Below are positions 1 to 64,000 of a stretch of 64,000 nt of DNA, piece by piece (the stretch's first letter is position 1; each line of letters opens with the position of its first letter). Below the pieces are notes generated by a model. It was not told the DNA's origin. It was given only the letters and a program-made list of their open reading frames with translations, and ran no database searches. The position numbers and the translations under genes were made by a program. The stretch covers positions 69,852,788 to 69,916,787 of the forward strand of contig CM120640.1 in the NCBI GenBank assembly GCA_051362555.1, given 5' to 3'. This DNA comes from Lingula anatina. Lineage: Eukaryota; Animalia; Brachiopoda.

Positions 1-3000
1 AGCAGACACCTGCCAGCATGCTGGGGAACAGGTCAGGCAGGGATCTGGTGCCAAGGGACAGCAACTCTAACTCTCCACAGGTGGGATCAGGAGATGGCAG
101 TGGGGTTATCAGCAACAACAAACGTGGTGGAGGTGGGGTGTATCCTCCAAACTACGGACCACAAGCCTAGGATATTCAAACCTGCAGGAGATGGTCAAGA
201 GAGTGACCAGCGGTCAAGGCAGGTGATCAGGTTGAATGGTCCACCCCCACAGACACTGCCTCACAAGATAGACATGTCCATCAGGTTGAATGGTCCACCC
301 CCACAGACACTGCCTCACAAGATAGACATGTCCAATCTAAGCAGGACAGGCCTGGTAGGGGGTGGCCACCAACAGCAGCATAAGATGGACTCTCCTAATC
401 TGAACAGGTCCAGGCCTGATATGAGTGACCCTGTCTCTGCCTCCCTACAGAGGCCTGGTGCTGGGGCAGCTTATCCACCACATGTACAGCAGAGACTAGG
501 GGGGAATAGGGGGGAACAGAGGCCTCTGGGAAGTACTAGTTCTGATGGCTCAGACAAAGATGGGACTAGAAGGTTTGTTGATGCTGATGGTGGCATGGCA
601 ACAAATAATTTCCAGTCTTCCTCACCAATGAATAGACATAGTACTGAAGTGAGGCCTGGTGTGGCTTACGGTCCACCACCACCATCATCATCAAGTACTA
701 TGCATAATGACTCCTCGGCTAACATGCACAGGGTTAGTGTCTTGAACAGAGCCAGTCAGAACATGATGGACAGACCATCACCAAATGTGCACAGCATGAG
801 ACTCTCTCCACACCACGACTCCCTCCCACATTCCACGGGACCCTGGAACGGTGTGACTGAAATGCGCAATACACCGCAATACAGCGCAACACAGTGCAAT
901 ACACTTCAAAAAATCAAATCCAGTTGCAATTACACAAAAGAAATGACCGTTCCCAGCAAAGTAGGGTGATATAAAAACAACCTATATTACTAGGTAAGTA
1001 ATATCGTTGAAATAACTTAACAAATCAGCAAGACTTTTATATTGTCGTGTTGGCAGCCATGTTGGCGAGTGGCTCTTCTTGGATATATTACTGGCCAAGA
1101 AGAGCTTTTCGCCAACATGGCGGCTGACCAAACAGTGAAAAAATTGTCAAGTTGTATCAGCAATATTAATTACTATGTACTATATTTTGCTTTTATATCA
1201 CCCTATTTTATTTGAGATTACCCTTTCCTGTGTTTACTTGCAACTGGACTTGTGTTATCAAGTGTATTGCGCTGTGTTGCGCTGTATTGCAGTGTATTGC
1301 GCATTTCAGTCACACCCCCGGGACCTCCTTATGAACATGATCACCAGAGGGAGCTGGGGTACGACTCTCAGAGCAATCAGAGCTCAGACTTAAGTGCAAA
1401 GAACACGTCTCTGGATCATACCAGTGAGAGTGAGCCCCCTCCCCCAGAGAGTCACCATGAGATTAGGAACTATGAAGATGTGGCTAGGTTTAAGCAACAG
1501 CAGCAGCCAGACCCTCTGTCACAAGTGTCCAGTTCTACGGACAGTGGCTATGGACACGGACATCACATTTATGAGAAGGTTAATGATCTGAGAATGGGAG
1601 GTGAGTTGTTACATTTTGGATCTGAAAAATTGCTTTTAAGTACATTGTAGCATTGTAACTTACCTTTTATGTATATTAAAGCTACTCTTACAACCGGTCG
1701 TGCGTGCTTCTACGAGCGGTTTGCGTGCAAAAAATTGGCCAAGTAGTAAGATACACGCACGTGGAGCGTACTATTTTTGGTAGACGCAAACACGACGCAA
1801 AGCACGCAGCCCGAAAACTGGCCGGCCAGTTTTTCGCTACGACCTGTCTGCGACAATTAGAATGCCTGGAGCACGCTCGTAGCACGCAAGACAAAAGTAC
1901 TGAGTAAGTGCGCTAGGCGTGCGTGTAACGCAGGAAAAGCATGCAGAAATTACGGGGTTTTTTACCACGAAGACGTACTTACCACGCAAGAGACTCGTAA
2001 GTTTAACTTGCTTTCAATGTACGTGTTAACAAAAAGAGGGGTGAGCGCACTTCCTCCGTGCGTTTATCTTACTTCCAAAGTGCGTGGCGAGTACTACTAC
2101 CATACCTGTGAAGTGCGTCACACTAAGACGACGCACGTGCCCAGCACGATAAAAGTGCAGGCGATCCCGAGCAACCACTGCCAGCATTGCGTCACGATCT
2201 TCGGCCTCCTCTAGCATTAGCAGCTGTAGAAGTCGATGGCGCATCCTTCTTGGAAGTGCCTTTTTGGAAGCCAAAACAGTGAATGATGAAGAGACTCGAT
2301 ACTCCCTTTTATATTATTTTGATTATCTGTGCATTCCATTTCCGTGCTTTTTACGTTTCTCTTACGTTTCTCTTACTTAGTAAGTACGGTTTCTGAAAAC
2401 ATACGCTTCACTTGCAATACACGTATGATTATCTCACTCACTGTGTGCGACACGAGTACAGATCGTACGTGCTCCTTACTTCTTCCTACTTCCAAAAAAA
2501 GGCGTACAGACCACTTGCGGGCCCCACGTTTAGAGCACAACACACCTACTCATAAAGTACTTACTACTTCGTCCGCTGCGATTTAATTTTCATCCTGCGA
2601 CAACGCTACGTCTGACGAGAACTCCGAGGACGCACGATCTCTAAGCACGCACGACGGGTTGTAAGAGAGGCTTAACACAGGTACAGAGAGAGGATCAGAG
2701 TGACTTTGAGGTTTACGAAAAAAAAACCTCTCTTTAATCATTTAGTCTTAAAAACAACTTAAGGCAGAGCAACAATTAAGTTTGACATTTAAAAGAGAAT
2801 GTTCCTGTCATCTTCCAGGTTACCCTCCTAGTCACCTGCCTCCTCCCATGAGAGCCCCACCCTCCCCTCCAGGCCACCCCCAGCCCAGCCCCCTTACTGT
2901 CCACCCCCAGCCCAGCCCCCTTACCATCCACTCCCATCCACCAGAACACAATCAGCTCCACAGGAACCCTCCAGATATCACCAGCCCTGTGGATGGACCT

Positions 3001-4575
3001 TATAATGGAATGGACCAAACCCACAAGGGGACAGATTTACCCTGGTGGTCAGTATGACCCTAGGATGACCAATAACCTCAGGGACTTCAAGCCGGCCAGA
3101 TCTTCCCCAGTAGCTCCTCTAATAAGAGACCATCAGCCTCCCTTGCCGCCCCAGCAAGGTGCCAGCAGGGGGAATCCGTACCCTGGTCCACCTAAGGAGC
3201 CAATCTATGTGTCCAGGAACCAGCTGTTCAGACAGCACAATGATGTGGGGTCAGGCAGAGAGAATGGTCTTCCTGACCAGCCACAACAGAGCCTGTATCT
3301 GGGGCAGAGCAAATATGAAGTGGTGGGTGCATGGGCTGAGATAGATGGGATCCTATTGTGGTAGAATAAAAAAAGATACATGAAACAAATATTTTCATGG
3401 TTAATTTTTAAACACTATTAAAGGATTTGAAGTAATCCTGTGGAGTTCTTAACTGTTATCTTTTGGTTGTAGAGATATGAACTTTGAACTATATTTTTAA
3501 ATTTTATACCTCTGTATTATCCACATGTTCTGGTGTGTTACAGCTTCCAGCCACTGTGTTGAAGAACCCAGGTCTAGGGTTCAGTATAGCTGGTGGGAGG
3601 GGATCCCAGGGCAATCCATACAGACCTGAAGACCAGGTGATACACACAGTCCTTAATTACCTGACTTAACACCATGTATACTCTTAGGCACAATTTCCAA
3701 ACAACCAACACCCAATAAATATTTGGAAGAAAATAGAAAAATTTGTCAAATTGTGTGATATTGTATGCTATTTTAACTATGTTAAGAACTTACATAAATA
3801 GTAACCAAGATTTGCCTAGCTGATGTTGAATGCTTGTTTTGTTCTTTGTTTTCTATTTTAAATAGGTAAATCTATCTACTACTAATTTGACGTGCCCTGA
3901 CAGCAACCATCATTTTATATTACTTTGATATTGATAATTGATATTGATATTGAAAGCCAGTTATTTTCTCTTTTCTTTTTAAATAGGACATGATCTGATC
4001 ACACATATCAGCTAATGCTTCATATGACTTATCTATAAACTTCATTCTGAACTAGCAATATATGAAATATAATTTTCTTTTTCAGGGTGTTTTTGTGACC
4101 AAGGTCCAACCTGAAGGGCCAGCAGCTGCAGAACTACGACCTGGAGACAAAATTTTGGAGGTGAGTTTTTAGAACCAGGCACCTGTTGTAGTGTAACAAT
4201 TTCCATGACTTCTAGATTAACATCAAGGTATCTTTGTGTTCTCTTCTGTAGGCCCTGCATGTCTGCTTAAGGGCTCTGTGTATTATATTATATTATATTA
4301 TATTATATTATATTATATTATATTATATTATATTATATTATATTATATTATATTAATGAGTAAAATGATAAAGTTTGCTGTGCTGCTGATGAGTTTTAGT
4401 GAAATAAGAGTTGTTTTATTGCATTATGTTTTTAACATATGTCTTTGTTTTGAAGGTCAACGGACAGAACTTTACTCAAGTTGACCACAGTCGTGCAGTG
4501 TCCATCTTAAAGAACAGTGGCCAGACTGTGTCCCTGCTGGTAGAGAGAGAAAGAGAGTTGGCCTCTAAGGTTTAG
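1..4575 (+). CDS. Erbin/LRRC7 (densin)-like LAP protein, 3' part with C-terminal PDZ domain (5' truncated by window)
   Basis: Predicted exons <1-850, 1310-1600, 2819-3322, 3544-3636, 4086-4160, 4456-4575, with GT-AG boundaries and matching phases. The last exons give LPATVLKNPGLGFSIAGGRGSQGNPYRPEDQ/GVFVTKVQPEGPAAAELRPGDKILE/VNGQNFTQVDHSRAVSILKNSGQTVSLLVERERELASKV*, matching the Erbin/densin PDZ (LGFSISGG..GNPFRP.D.GIFVTRVQPEGPA..LLQPGDKI). A low-complexity Pro/Ser/His region precedes it. Apparent +1 frameshifts at about 160 and 3028. Confidence 0.85.
226..333 (+). repeat. Exact 54-bp in-frame exonic tandem duplication (IRLNGPPPQTLPHKIDMS x2)
   Basis: 226-279 is identical to 280-333. Confidence 0.95.
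850..1316. mobile_element. Foldback-type MITE inserted in Erbin-like coding sequence; candidate intron 851-1309
   Basis: TIR GGTGTGACTGAAATGCGCAATACAC at 850, with its exact reverse complement ending at 1316. The arms stay imperfectly complementary to a central hairpin (about 1047-1133). Subterminal 10-bp repeats (GCGCAATACA-like). Confidence 0.9.
1680..2672. mobile_element. Non-autonomous PIF/Harbinger-like DNA transposon
   Basis: TIR AGCTACTCTTACAACCGGTCGTGCGTGCTT versus right-end reverse complement AGCCTCTCTTACAACCCGTCGTGCGTGCTT. TAA on both flanks (1677-1679, 2673-2675). CpG-rich interior unlike the host intron. Confidence 0.8.
4281..4354. repeat. (TATTA)n pentanucleotide microsatellite
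   Basis: About 15 perfect copies in the last Erbin-like intron. Confidence 0.95.
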
Positions 4576-7941: not shown

Positions 7942-45677
<37,736 letters not shown>

Positions 45678-60244: not shown

Positions 60245-61571
60245 GAATTGTTAGATTGTTAAATCGTTACCAAATTTCAGTCCTTTTAGTCGTATGATCA
60301 ACTAAGATTTTCATGACATGATCTGTTTTTTTTTGTTTTTTTTTTTGTTATTATTTTAATGCCCCTGTAAGATCATAAGGGTTATGTAAACTTGCTAAAA
60401 ACTTTACAAATGTTATTCCACAGAAGGCAAATATACAAGAGTCAAAACATAAAAATCAAGTCTACACCTTAATCAGTTAAAGTTCCAAATAACAGTAATC
60501 CCCTGCGTCATAGTCCATTATGTAGGCCCCTCTAATGAGAGGACCAGTGTTCAAAAAATTAAGGTAAACATTAAAAATTCCATTTGTGATTGACCTTACT
60601 GTTATTCTACATTTGCCTTTGTACACCTTAAATCCAATTGAGAGGTTTTCATAGAAGGTGTAATTAATGCGTAGGTTTGTACTGTATTTTCACTGCGATC
60701 TGTCCCTATGTTTGCTCAACAGAAATCCGACCCACACTATACATTTGGGTAGGATAATATCTCACAAATGAAAAGTGTTGATTCAACGTTTGTCTGACAT
60801 CGAGTGGGTATTAACTTAAAAGGTCTTATTTGTGTTCGATTTAGGAGTATTGCTACTTTCACATGTTTGCTAGAGCTGGTTAAAAGCATTTCTTTTTTAC
60901 CTCACCACTATCACGGACATACATTCCATCAATGACCCTGAAGTGAGGTGTAGGCTGTTGAAAACGAACAGTCACTTCCCTTAAAGGTGAAAGAGCAGCA
61001 CAGTCAAACTTACTCAGGATAAATCGTTTTTGACAAAGTTTGTAGATTTACCTTAACCGAAATTAAACCTTATAAATCCAAATCTTTGCTTGGAGTTCGG
61101 AAAATATTGACATGGTTTCAATTGAATGTCAAGGAGTTTGTTTATTGTATACAAATCTAGTATCCAAGAATTTTGTAGATTTTGTGGCTGGCTGATAAAC
61201 TTTCAACATCATCTGTATTTTGAGAGTTCAACTAGCAGCTTATAAAGTAAATTCCACGTACAAAGAAGTAGCAAGCCAAGCCTTGACAGTAAGACATTTA
61301 TCAAAAATATCTGTAACTTTTTCTAGGTTGAATCAAGGGATTAAAGCTGATACGTGATTGTATATCACAAGCCACATAACAGAGAAACAAGTCCACAAGA
61401 ACGCCAGGTATTTTGTGATCAGGAACAGCATAGTCATACAGCTATGGTTTGATGCCAAGCATAAGGAATTAAACCTTAGTGGGCTCAACAAGTTGAAATT
61501 TCAATGCTGTGAAGAGAATACAAGAAGATGGCCAACTATTGTACCCTGAGTATGTGGACAATGTTTCCAAA

Positions 61572-64000
61572 ATGACAAGAGTTGTGCCGACAATTCATAT
61601 ACTTTTGCATGTGACAGAGACAGCACTGCAGCTGAGTGCGGCAGGGTACTACTGGCTGCTTACACCATGGTGCACAGCTATCCTGTGTTTGATCTTCATC
61701 CCCGTTCTCCTGGTCAACCTGCTCTCTCTGCTCTGGGTGTTCAGGACCATGGAGTTCGGGGACAAACAGTGCGGACGGACACTGTGTGCACTGTTACATG
61801 TCCTACAACTAGGAACACTATGGAGATACTTCAAATTACTCGTGGTGTTTGAAAAGGCGGACTGTGAGGAGTTTGTTCTTCTCCGCCTGGTGCAGGTGAC
61901 CCTCCAGAATGCCCCATATCTCATAATACAGGGCTATTTGATTCTGGAGCAAGACTTCAATGACGTGCCAAATTTCCTTTTTGCAAGTGCAATCGTGTCT
62001 CTTCTCTCTCTTGCCTTCAGTATGGTGCTATACCATGAGACAGATGACACTGATGAACAGAATTCAAAGAAAGTTAACCAGAATGCAAAAACCAGTCTGT
62101 GTTTCAAAGTTTTTGTCCTCCATGTTCAAGGACTATGGCACTTGCTTTGCCTCATGTCAAGGTTTATGGCTATTATACTTTTCACAACAGCTTTGCGATT
62201 CTGGACACTTTTATTTCTCGCAACTCACTGGCTGTGTCTGCTGATTTGGATCGAGATTCAGCAGGTGATTTCCATCAAAGCCAAGCCAAAGAAATGGAAA
62301 GAGAGGACTTGGGACTGGTTTTTAGCATGCGTTCAGATTTATGATCTTCTGGACGCAAAAGACTGGAGAAAATATTACAAGTTTGGTGCATTTTATCTCA
62401 CAATTCTGGTGGAAAATATTCTAATGGTCACTATATGGTACACAGATGAAAGCAACCAGAAGGCATACAAAGTGACTGCCCTCACGCTCATGTTTGTGTT
62501 TTACATAACTGGAGTCTTATTTATGATATTCAATTATAAATTCTTCTGGCGCAATGGGCAGCCATTCAATGCATGCAAAGCCTGTTGTCCATGGAAAAGC
62601 AAAACAGCTGAATTGAAGAATATTGAGATTATAACTGATGAAATGCACTGGGATGCTTATGATGTGGATATACAAAGAAATACCCACTGTTTTGAGAATC
62701 TTGCCTTTGAAATGCAGGCACAACAGCTTAAACTTCCAGGGTGTGCTGATGAGAATGAAGCACATCTGACAAATACCAATAACCCTGCAAAATCTTTACT
62801 CCAAATGCCTCAGACAGCTCAGTTTCCACTCCAGAGTCATACAGTGGAAGTAAAACCACTTCGCAAACTCCCGCCAGTCCCAAGTGCTGACAGTGTCAGT
62901 CAAGTCAAACAATACACAAGGCATCAAACAATAAAACCCGACTTACTGGAAAAGGATAGTATCCCCCAGAGCAAGGATTTGCCAGCTGTGGGGGGTGGTG
63001 TGGGAGAACAGAAAACCCGATATGCTGAACTTTCCATCAGTACAGAGCAGGGGTCATCAAATAGTCGTAATACACACACGTTAGAACTCAGTGCTCAAAG
63101 TGTATCCATGGCAACGGACCCAAAGAACAACACGGAAGAAAACACTAGGGTTGACTTACCTAAAAGTAAACAGTTATCGACTCTTCCAACTTCTCAGGTG
63201 ACTTTTGATGTTAACACTAAGCCACTGAGTAATAAAAAACAACCATGGATGTATGACTTTGAGGCAATGTTATCTGAGTCCACATCTTTTCTCAGTGAGC
63301 GTGATGGACACTATAGTATACACTGTGAGACATGCGGAGAGACCCTGACAGAGACATCCAGTGATGTCACCTCAACAGATACCTACCTCAGTGAATTCAG
63401 TGGATTTAACTGGCCAACCCATGATATGGTGGGCAGTGGACCCATAGTGGAAAATATGACTGACCCTCCTGACGAGGACAGTAAAATGTCCCCCTTTGAC
63501 ACCATTCAGCATTGGCTAGAGGCCACCTCACGTTTCCAGAAGAAACAAAAACACCGTGTGGAGGGGCGGAGGGCAGAGAGACTGGCGCATCTTCATCATA
63601 TGGACAATGTGAGGATGTCCACCATGCCAGTTACTGGGCATGGTCATCACCACTACCAGCACCAACACAATCACACAGACTTCTCAACTGATGCAGTGAA
63701 ATTCTCCACTATGATAACTCAGCCAAAGACAGGGGGAGAGGCTGTGGACTTGTCTCAGAAACACAAAGGGAGCCAAGAGCCGTACGTGCACAGATGTCCT
63801 CGTATCCGCTACCACAGCCCTCCAAGCACCATTACACAGTCAACTGCCTCAAGACATAAAAAGCCAAAGCTGAAATCTAAAACCAAAACTACACATAAGA
63901 TACCTCCATCAACCCCAGTCTCTGCAATCACCCAGCTAGACGTAGGGCTGACTGCTACTAGTGCCAAACAAACTTCACAAAAACCATCTTACAGGTCTCC
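61572..64000 (+). CDS. XK-related (XKR family) multi-pass membrane protein with long C-terminal tail, 3' truncated by window
   Basis: Uninterrupted ORF of at least 809 codons from ATG 61572 (in-frame stop at 61494). XK-family motifs LHVLQLGTLWRY, LRLVQVTLQNAPYLIIQGY, SLLSLAFSMVLY, LWHLLCLMSRFMAIILF, THWL, VENILMVTIWY, followed by more than 480 aa of Ser/Thr/His/Lys-rich tail. Possible exon acceptor TTTTCTAG at 61326. Confidence 0.85.
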   Translation, partial: MTRVVPTIHILLHVTETALQLSAAGYYWLLTPWCTAILCLIFIPVLLVNLLSLLWVFRTMEFGDKQCGRTLCALLHVLQLGTLWRYFKLLVVFEKADCEEFVLLRLVQVTLQNAPYLIIQGYLILEQDFNDVPNFLFASAIVSLLSLAFSMVLYHETDDTDEQNSKKVNQNAKTSLCFKVFVLHVQGLWHLLCLMSRFMAIILFTTALRFWTLLFLATHWLCLLIWIEIQQVISIKAKPKKWKERTWDWFLACVQIYDLLDAKDWRKYYKFGAFYLTILVENILMVTIWYTDESNQKAYKVTALTLMFVFYITGVLFMIFNYKFFWRNGQPFNACKACCPWKSKTAELKNIEIITDEMHWDAYDVDIQRNTHCFENLAFEMQAQQLKLPGCADENEAHLTNTNNPAKSLLQMPQTAQFPLQSHTVEVKPLRKLPPVPSADSVSQVKQYTRHQTIKPDLLEKDSIPQSKDLPAVGGGVGEQKTRYAELSISTEQGSSNSRNTHTLELSAQSVSMATDPKNNTEENTRVDLPKSKQLSTLPTSQVTFDVNTKPLSNKKQPWMYDFEAMLSESTSFLSERDGHYSIHCETCGETLTETSSDVTSTDTYLSEFSGFNWPTHDMVGSGPIVENMTDPPDEDSKMSPFDTIQHWLEATSRFQKKQKHRVEGRRAERLAHLHHMDNVRMSTMPVTGHGHHHYQHQHNHTDFSTDAVKFSTMITQPKTGGEAVDLSQKHKGSQEPYVHRCPRIRYHSPPSTITQSTASRHKKPKLKSKTKTTHKIPPSTPVSAITQLDVGLTATSAKQTSQKPSYRS

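What the first reader, a model, noticed from the sequence alone, without database searches (positions are those of the whole stretch)
833..1326. Palindromic MITE inside a coding exon that carries both splice sites (introner-like intron gain)
Seen: a 467-bp element (850-1316) with perfect 25-bp TIRs interrupts Erbin-like coding sequence and contains a stop (TGA 967-969). Bases 2-3 of the left TIR form a donor (AACG|GTGTGA, 851), and the right TIR contains an acceptor (GCATTTCAG|, 1309). Removing 851-1309 joins ...HSTGPWN to VTPPGPPYEHDHQRELGYDSQ exactly in frame. A flanking CGGGACC duplication (836-842 and 1319-1325) suggests an ancestral ...HSTGPPYE and a net 24-nt (8 aa) gain, though the TSD boundary is ambiguous. 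The element is one hairpin with arms of about 230 bp, so the donor pairs with sequence at the acceptor. Because the TIRs are symmetric, either orientation would supply both sites. Established: introner elements are non-autonomous DNA transposons that create spliceosomal introns. Inference: this may be a recent intron gain from such a family. An internal GTAAGT (994) downstream of the stop could route some transcripts to NMD.
Basis: partly seen in the sequence, partly recalled or inferred. Interest (0 to 1): 0.82.

Follow-up and report, generated by a model that had tools for sequence, protein, structure and literature searches.

The report
Hairpin transposon in broken lamp-shell gene
A small fold-back jumping element sits in a coding exon of an erbin-like gene of the lamp shell Lingula, but this copy of the gene is also broken by two frameshifts, and the splice-like signals at the element's ends are predicted to be buried in a hairpin and were not seen in use, so this is likely an ordinary disabling insertion rather than a new intron.

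Summary
The sequence observation holds. There is a 467-bp element at 850-1316 with perfect 25-bp TIRs and a strong hairpin (z -23.8). A GT at 851 and an AG at 1309 would join in frame with a 24-nt scar. The host is the Lingula LRR+PDZ (erbin-like) gene. The database protein, all 6 RNA runs laid and 1 of 2 DNA runs show the predicted empty site. The element is multi-copy, so this is a recent polymorphic MITE insertion. Intron gain is not supported. No 850^1310 joint was listed, but no run was shown to carry the insertion, so splicing is untested. The window's allele has an 11-nt deletion upstream (stop at 168) and a 5-nt deletion downstream (stop at 3055, PDZ lost), while neighbouring ROCK is intact. 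Splicing therefore could not restore the protein. The sites score weak to moderate, have stronger rivals and lie in the stem. A published screen lists 0 introner families for L. anatina. If the RNA is excised at all, imprecise SOS-type splicing is as plausible as the spliceosome. The scan noted similar exonic MITEs in two other genomes.

The parts
850..1316 (.). Fold-back MITE, 467 bp (possibly 849-1317, 469 bp), non-coding, multi-copy family
   Evidence: Longest stop-free stretch is 64 codons. Summed contig depth over the ends is 11,686/12,561 vs 63-109 in the flanking exon in X1, and 5,480/4,100 vs 132-255 in X2 (not a copy number). No Rfam hit.
850..874 (+). Left perfect 25-bp TIR, followed by four 10-bp subrepeats (866-905)
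1292..1316 (-). Right perfect 25-bp TIR, preceded by four 10-bp subrepeats (1263-1302)
851..856 (+). Candidate donor (use not shown)
   Evidence: 5.41 bits; 5 of 30 real donors score as low or lower; fourth best in the element. Predicted fully paired.
1304..1309 (+). Candidate acceptor (use not shown)
   Evidence: 6.27 bits; 9 of 30 real acceptors score as low or lower; the AG at 1292 scores 6.67. Predicted fully paired.
994..999 (+). Strongest donor-like site in the element, downstream of TGA 967
   Evidence: 9.66 bits; 25 of 30 real donors score as low or lower
836..842 (+). Left copy of the 7-nt duplicated target
   Evidence: empty-site joints 835->1319 skip 483 nt
843..849 (+). Extra 7 nt between the target copy and the TIR; a 5-of-7 degenerate copy of the target 7-mer, filler-like (last base may belong to the element)
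   Evidence: sequence; loose ends
1317..1325 (+). Two extra C plus the right copy of the 7-nt target
1..1600 (+). 3' part of a large coding exon of the LAP (LRR+PDZ, erbin/densin-like) gene, orthologue of L. anatina LOC106174883
   Evidence: donor at 1601 shown by RNA joints
154..170 (+). 11-nt deletion behind 154 relative to other alleles; frameshift with stop TAG 168-170 in the P0001 frame, upstream of the MITE
   Evidence: The 11 nt are present in X16, X17, X20 and X22 reads and in an X2 contig.
3019..3057 (+). 5-nt deletion behind 3019; frameshift with stop TGA 3055-3057, removing the PDZ-coding end
   Evidence: The 5 nt are present in X16 13/15, X17 16/17, X22 9/14 and X21 4/6 reads and in X1 and X2 contigs.
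2819..4575 (+). Remaining LAP exons (2819-3322, 3544-3636, 4086-4162, 4456-stop) encoding the PDZ end
   Evidence: RNA joints for the first three introns

Best explanation
A recent copy of a multi-copy fold-back MITE sits in the large linker exon of the Lingula erbin-like gene, on an allele that also carries two frameshifting deletions, so it is likely a tolerated insertion in a dead allele rather than a working new intron. Shown: the element, the empty site in other animals, the multi-copy family, both frameshifts and the intact neighbouring gene. Inferred: a transposase supplied in trans inserted the element, and error-prone repair left a 7-nt target duplication plus filler (483 nt in all). 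Translation of this allele would stop at 168 or, if something upstream of the window compensates, at 967 (unspliced) or 3055 (spliced), and the RNA would be an NMD target. The TIR hairpin is predicted to hide both splice-like sites. Any removal from RNA would be partial or imprecise and could not restore the protein. The order of the insertion and the frameshifts is unknown.
For: Frameshifts against P0001 at ~155 and ~3020. The missing 11 nt are shown in 5 of 8 laid runs and the missing 5 nt in 6 of 8; the other runs have low depth or no row. ROCK matches P0005 with in-frame GT-AG junctions throughout, and an 834-aa XK frame is open, so the assembly is not generally indel-ridden. The empty site is seen in 6 of 6 RNA runs (33 joint reads) and 1 of 2 DNA runs, with no 850->1310 joint listed. 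Donor 851 is outscored by three internal donors; acceptor 1309 is outscored by 1292, which is out of frame with 851. Opening cost is 18.4 (donor) and 43.8 (acceptor) kcal/mol vs 6.2-8.2 for four real LAP sites. A stem at a weak 5' splice site inhibits U1 recruitment in SMN2 (PMC1802598, abstract only). Other family copies appear in RNA with their ends intact, e.g. 45 reads in X22, 13 in X17, 12 in X19 (weak, since they may be in UTRs or introns). 0 introner families are listed for L. anatina GCF_001039355.2 (PMC12130899 supplement file 7).
Against: No run was shown to carry the insertion allele, so the missing junction says nothing about how that allele is spliced. Both sites fall within the range of real Lingula sites and in the top 6.5% (249 of 3,826) and 3.4% (133 of 3,937) of decoys. 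851/1309 leaves the smallest in-frame scar of 8 open combinations among 224. The site lies in an unconserved linker where 8 extra residues would likely be tolerated. Frame 1 is open from base 1, so a compensating indel upstream of the window is not excluded. The folding costs are equilibrium predictions. The published introner screens did not cover this allele.
Confidence: 0.72

Rival explanations
1. The spliceosome removes 851-1309 from a substantial share of this allele's transcripts (a proto-intron). This can coexist with the allele being null, in which case it has no protein consequence here.
For: In-frame, stop-free join. Sites lie within the range of real Lingula sites, and TTTCAG is a common real acceptor in this window. 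Aureococcus introners carry both sites and add codons (PMC9860276 section 7).
Against: Both sites are predicted fully paired. Stronger donor at 994. No branch-point-like motif from my short pattern list in 1241-1309. Other copies are retained in RNA (weak). Frameshifted allele, so nothing selects for rescue.
Confidence: 0.17
2. The hairpin is a substrate for SOS splicing: spliceosome-independent, imprecise excision near the TIR ends, followed by RTCB ligation. The GT and AG are incidental. Also compatible with a null allele.
For: SOS splicing is triggered by ITR base-pairing in exonic DNA transposons, including non-autonomous ones, in C. elegans and human cells. It cuts at several sites near the ITR termini, rarely at GU-AG (PMC12779559 abstract, passages, part 2 of 4 of the main section and the Discussion). 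This element is exonic with a very stable TIR stem.
Against: Not shown in any lophotrochozoan in what I read. AKAP17A, CAAP1 and RTCB were not looked for in Lingula. Other copies are seen unexcised in RNA (weak). No carrier RNA.
Confidence: 0.25
3. The window's copy is a decaying duplicate (paralogue) beside a functional copy upstream of the window, rather than a null allele of the single locus.
For: Several lesions cluster on one gene copy: two frameshifts, the MITE and a second intronic element. A few amino-acid changes (562, 661, 695) differ from all reads shown at those sites (truncated tables).
Against: One L. anatina locus is found in three protein searches. The LAP and ROCK reference proteins both list a longest contig of 1,837,862 bases, consistent with the same neighbourhood. 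Divergence from other alleles is small.
Confidence: 0.1
4. The frameshifts, and possibly the odd junction, are assembly errors on an otherwise functional allele.
For: None of the 8 laid runs is shown to share the lesions. The best listed runs hold only 0.60 of the sampled words.
Against: 11- and 5-nt deletions outside homopolymers are not typical consensus errors (own knowledge). About 1,160 aa of ROCK and 834 aa of XK have no frameshift.
Confidence: 0.06

Closest known systems
Aureococcus sp. introners (Gozashti et al. 2022, PMC9860276, section 7 read)
   Same: Element carries both splice-like sites inside its ends, and removal would leave a short in-frame scar made of element ends plus target duplication.
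   Different: There it is a family of annotated introns with a regular 12-nt scar (4 + 8 TSD). Here it is one unspliced-as-far-as-known insertion with an irregular 24-nt scar including filler, in a frameshifted allele.
SOS-spliced DNA transposons in C. elegans and human cells (Zhao et al. 2025, PMC12779559; abstract, passages, part of main text and Discussion read)
   Same: Exonic DNA transposon whose TIRs form a strong RNA hairpin, in a poorly conserved protein region.
   Different: Excision is not shown here, the factors were not checked in Lingula, and rescue is impossible on this allele because of the other frameshifts.
MITEs, in particular Foldback/MULE-type elements (defining features recalled, not from a call)
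   Same: Short, non-coding, AT-rich, multi-copy, long imperfect arms with 10-bp subterminal repeats.
   Different: The target duplication here is irregular (7 nt perfect but offset; best abutting match 7 of 9), and no autonomous partner was identified, so the superfamily is unassigned.
MITE-derived introners of Micromonas (review PMC11282704, passages read)
   Same: Non-autonomous TIR element in an exon.
   Different: Micromonas elements carry one site and take the other from the TSD; this one would need both from its TIRs.

Membership tests
Introner | Derived from a mobile element (TIRs, multiple similar copies) | tested here: met
Introner | Inserted in an exon; orthologous site empty and without an intron | tested here: met
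   P0001 reads through the site; an X1 contig is continuous across it and 33 RNA reads show the 483-nt skip
Introner | Removed from mRNA at fixed splice sites | tested here: inconclusive
   No 850->1310 joint listed in 6 RNA runs, but no run was shown to carry the insertion; listing needs 3 reads and hid 3 joint rows
Introner | Removal restores a functional reading frame | tested here: not met
   The local join is in frame, but the allele stops at 168 and, even if that were compensated, at 3055
Introner | At least 4 similar introns in unrelated genes (criterion of PMC9860276 and PMC12130899) | not testable with these tools
   No genome held. The published table lists 0 families for L. anatina GCF_001039355.2.
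MITE | Short, non-coding, terminal inverted repeats | tested here: met
   467 bp, 25-bp perfect TIR, longest stop-free stretch 64 codons
MITE | Multi-copy, interspersed | tested here: met
   Many different flanks at the same ends and far higher summed depth; only one copy in the window
MITE | Regular target-site duplication that assigns the superfamily | tested here: inconclusive
   7 nt perfect but offset; 7 of 9 abutting; flanks of other copies are unpaired consensus rows
SOS-splicing substrate | Exonic inverted repeats able to base-pair | tested here: met
   predicted fold
SOS-splicing substrate | Heterogeneous non-GT-AG excision near the TIR ends | not testable with these tools
   no carrier RNA identified
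SOS-splicing substrate | AKAP17A, CAAP1 and RTCB present in the host | not tested
   no query sequences were in hand from tools

The most novel reading that the evidence does not exclude
This MITE family is an active Aureococcus-type introner of brachiopods: every exonic copy, in either orientation, is spliced at its own TIR sites. If the element is 849-1317 with an 8-bp TSD, each insertion would leave an in-frame 18-nt scar. Segregating insertions would then show intron gain in progress in an animal phylum where screens listed none.
Probability: 0.06. Interest if true: 0.7.

Novelty: new member of a known kind. Interest (0 to 1): 0.2.

Why it matters
As it stands it is a routine polymorphic transposon insertion in a disabled allele, a small example of mutational load in a marine invertebrate. 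It is still a convenient natural test substrate. RNA from one carrier would distinguish spliceosomal removal, SOS-type excision and simple retention for a fold-back element in a lophotrochozoan. If the family proved to be an introner, it would extend active intron gain to brachiopods.

Tried and rejected
No whole genome is held, so genome-wide copy and TSD analysis was impossible. No RNA holder was listed by the run search; this is no evidence on expression. I laid 8 of the 24 listed runs (6 RNA, with about 6% of each read except X22 at about 25%; 2 DNA contig sets). TIR pattern scans found nothing in metagenome contigs or viral contigs. No second copy lies in the window. No Rfam family in 700-2800. 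None of the 11 proteins carries the predicted scar peptide; only P0001 among them is a close relative. A-to-I editing: A>G plus T>C places outnumber G>A plus C>T places by 252 to 199 in the RNA lays and 56 to 53 in the DNA lays. Reads come from many copies and there is no matched DNA, so I draw nothing from this. I tried to read the TSD from loose-end consensus rows and rejected the attempt, because the rows mix loci and left and right flanks cannot be paired. X2 is unresolved at the site: one contig runs 17 letters past 842 unlike the window and another begins exactly at 1319, with no empty joint listed. An old intron later invaded by the element is rejected, since the empty allele is continuous in DNA. 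In the splice-site model I left out 2 ROCK junctions unresolved at that time (resolved as in frame) and 1 LAP intron whose donor I had mis-set by one base, leaving 30. Literature: 'Lingula anatina' + 'introner' gave 0 papers; 'brachiopod' + 'MITE' + 'transposon' + 'intron gain' listed 2 papers that look unrelated by title and abstract start. Files 13 and 14 of the PMC12130899 supplements were not searched, and the PMC9860276 supplement was cut when stored.

Full report
Observation. The element is as described. The TIRs at 850-874 and 1292-1316 match at 25 of 25 bases and stop there. The TIR 23-mer occurs twice in 64 kb, with none expected from shuffles. The stretch folds as a long hairpin (MFE -254.1 kcal/mol, z -23.8), and its halves align at 176 of 239 columns. 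Four 10-bp subrepeats follow each end. Frame 1 stops at TGA 967. Removing 851-1309 gives an open frame to the donor at 1601.

Host gene. The flanks match P0001, L. anatina LOC106174883, a 1,653-aa LRR+PDZ protein; relatives in other spiralians are named erbin-like. The site lies in a linker that is not conserved beyond Lingula.

Population evidence. I laid 8 of 24 listed runs. A 483-nt skip with non-splice ends, which is the empty allele, appears in all 6 RNA runs (2, 11, 2, 9, 1 and 8 reads) and in a contig of X1. X2 is unresolved. No 850->1310 joint is listed. The tables need 3 reads to list a joint, hid 3 rows, and no run was shown to carry the insertion, so this is not a test of splicing. 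The element is multi-copy: summed contig depth over its ends is tens to more than a hundred times that of the flanking exon (not a copy number), and many unrelated flanks join its ends. In the loose-end rows shown, 7 of 8 left ends include C849 and 7 of 8 right ends include C1317, so the family ends may be 849-1317. RNA reads running from foreign flanks into intact element ends (up to 45 in X22) show that other copies are retained in RNA, though these may lie in UTRs or introns.

P0001 aligns to frame 3 up to base 161 and to frame 1 from 157. Reads of X16, X17, X20 and X22 and a contig of X2 carry 11 more bases behind 154. In the gene's frame the window stops at TAG 168, about 680 nt before the element. 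A second, 5-nt deletion behind 3019 (the bases are present in 6 of 8 runs) gives a stop at 3055, 265 nt before the next junction, and removes the PDZ end. Frame 1 is open from base 1, so an upstream compensating indel cannot be excluded for the first lesion, but the second remains. These are unlikely to be general assembly noise. The adjacent ROCK gene matches P0005 with in-frame junctions (27 of 29 clean; the other two resolved as a 2-aa difference and a 17-nt micro-exon), and an 834-aa XK frame is open. Whatever happens to the element in RNA, this allele cannot make the protein.

Splice-site quality. I built a matrix from 30 introns of this window. Donor 851 scores 5.41 bits, with 5 of 30 real donors as low or lower and 249 of 3,826 decoys as high; donors at 994, 961 and 966 are stronger. 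Acceptor 1309 scores 6.27, with 9 of 30 as low or lower and 133 of 3,937 decoys as high; 1292 scores slightly higher and is out of frame with 851. The sites are therefore plausible, not strong. Both are predicted fully paired. Opening them costs 18.4 and 43.8 kcal/mol, against 6.2-8.2 for four real sites of the same gene (equilibrium model). A stem over a weak donor blocks U1 in SMN2 (PMC1802598, abstract).

Junction. The perfect 7-mer is separated from the TIRs by 7 nt on the left, a 5-of-7 degenerate copy of itself, and by 2 nt on the right; the best abutting match is 7 of 9. This looks like a target duplication with repair filler (inference). The in-frame total of 24 nt is thus a property of this junction. 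Whether the family as a whole preserves frame depends on its TSD length, which I could not determine.

Comparison. Introners that carry both sites and add codons are known from Aureococcus (PMC9860276, section 7). Families there need at least four similar introns, and the 2025 table lists 0 families for L. anatina (PMC12130899 supplement file 7). The 2022 table lists another Lingula row without introners. A closer mechanism for a fold-back exonic element in an animal may be SOS splicing, which is triggered by TIR pairing, is imprecise and rarely uses GU-AG (PMC12779559). It is untested in Lingula.

Verdict. This is a real, recent, polymorphic MITE insertion with introner-like geometry, in an allele already disabled twice over. 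It works like a disruptive or neutral insertion; it is not shown to be an introner and fails the frame-restoring criterion on this allele. Interest is low (0.2), with a small chance (0.06) that the family is an active brachiopod introner, which the genome and carrier RNA would settle.

Noticed in passing
window 1676-2675: A second multi-copy TIR element of about 992 nt (1680-2671, 31-nt arms 90% complementary) flanked by TTAA, in the intron after the MITE exon. It is absent from X1 and X2 contigs (joint 1675->2672, 4 shared letters). Possibly Kolobok- or Harbinger-like (label recalled). A second haplotype in both runs joins 1678->2731.
   Followed up: partly
window 1-3057: One allele carries two frameshifts, two element insertions and several amino-acid changes while its neighbour is intact. 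Why so many hits fall on one allele of an apparently single-copy gene is unexplained (long-lived null allele, hidden duplicate, or clustered repair).
   Followed up: partly
window 226-333: Perfect 54-nt in-frame tandem duplication containing AG|GT, so it could be read as a 54-nt GT..AG intron. X1 DNA lacks it. X2 contigs end at 255 and start at 305, the pattern expected if X2 carries it, so it likely segregates.
   Followed up: partly
window 7942-45594: Intact ROCK (Rho-associated kinase) gene, with a 17-nt micro-exon at about 44276-44292 and two residues fewer than P0005 at the 33816/35738 junction.
   Followed up: partly
window 61497-64000: 834-aa open frame with an XK-related domain (PF09815) running off the window end.
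   Followed up: partly
window 26265-26977 and 28396-29333: Tandem arrays in a ROCK intron (periods of about 353 and 161 nt, seen in ORF and BLAST lists) and two copies of a 30-nt palindrome at 28396 and 28619.
   Followed up: no
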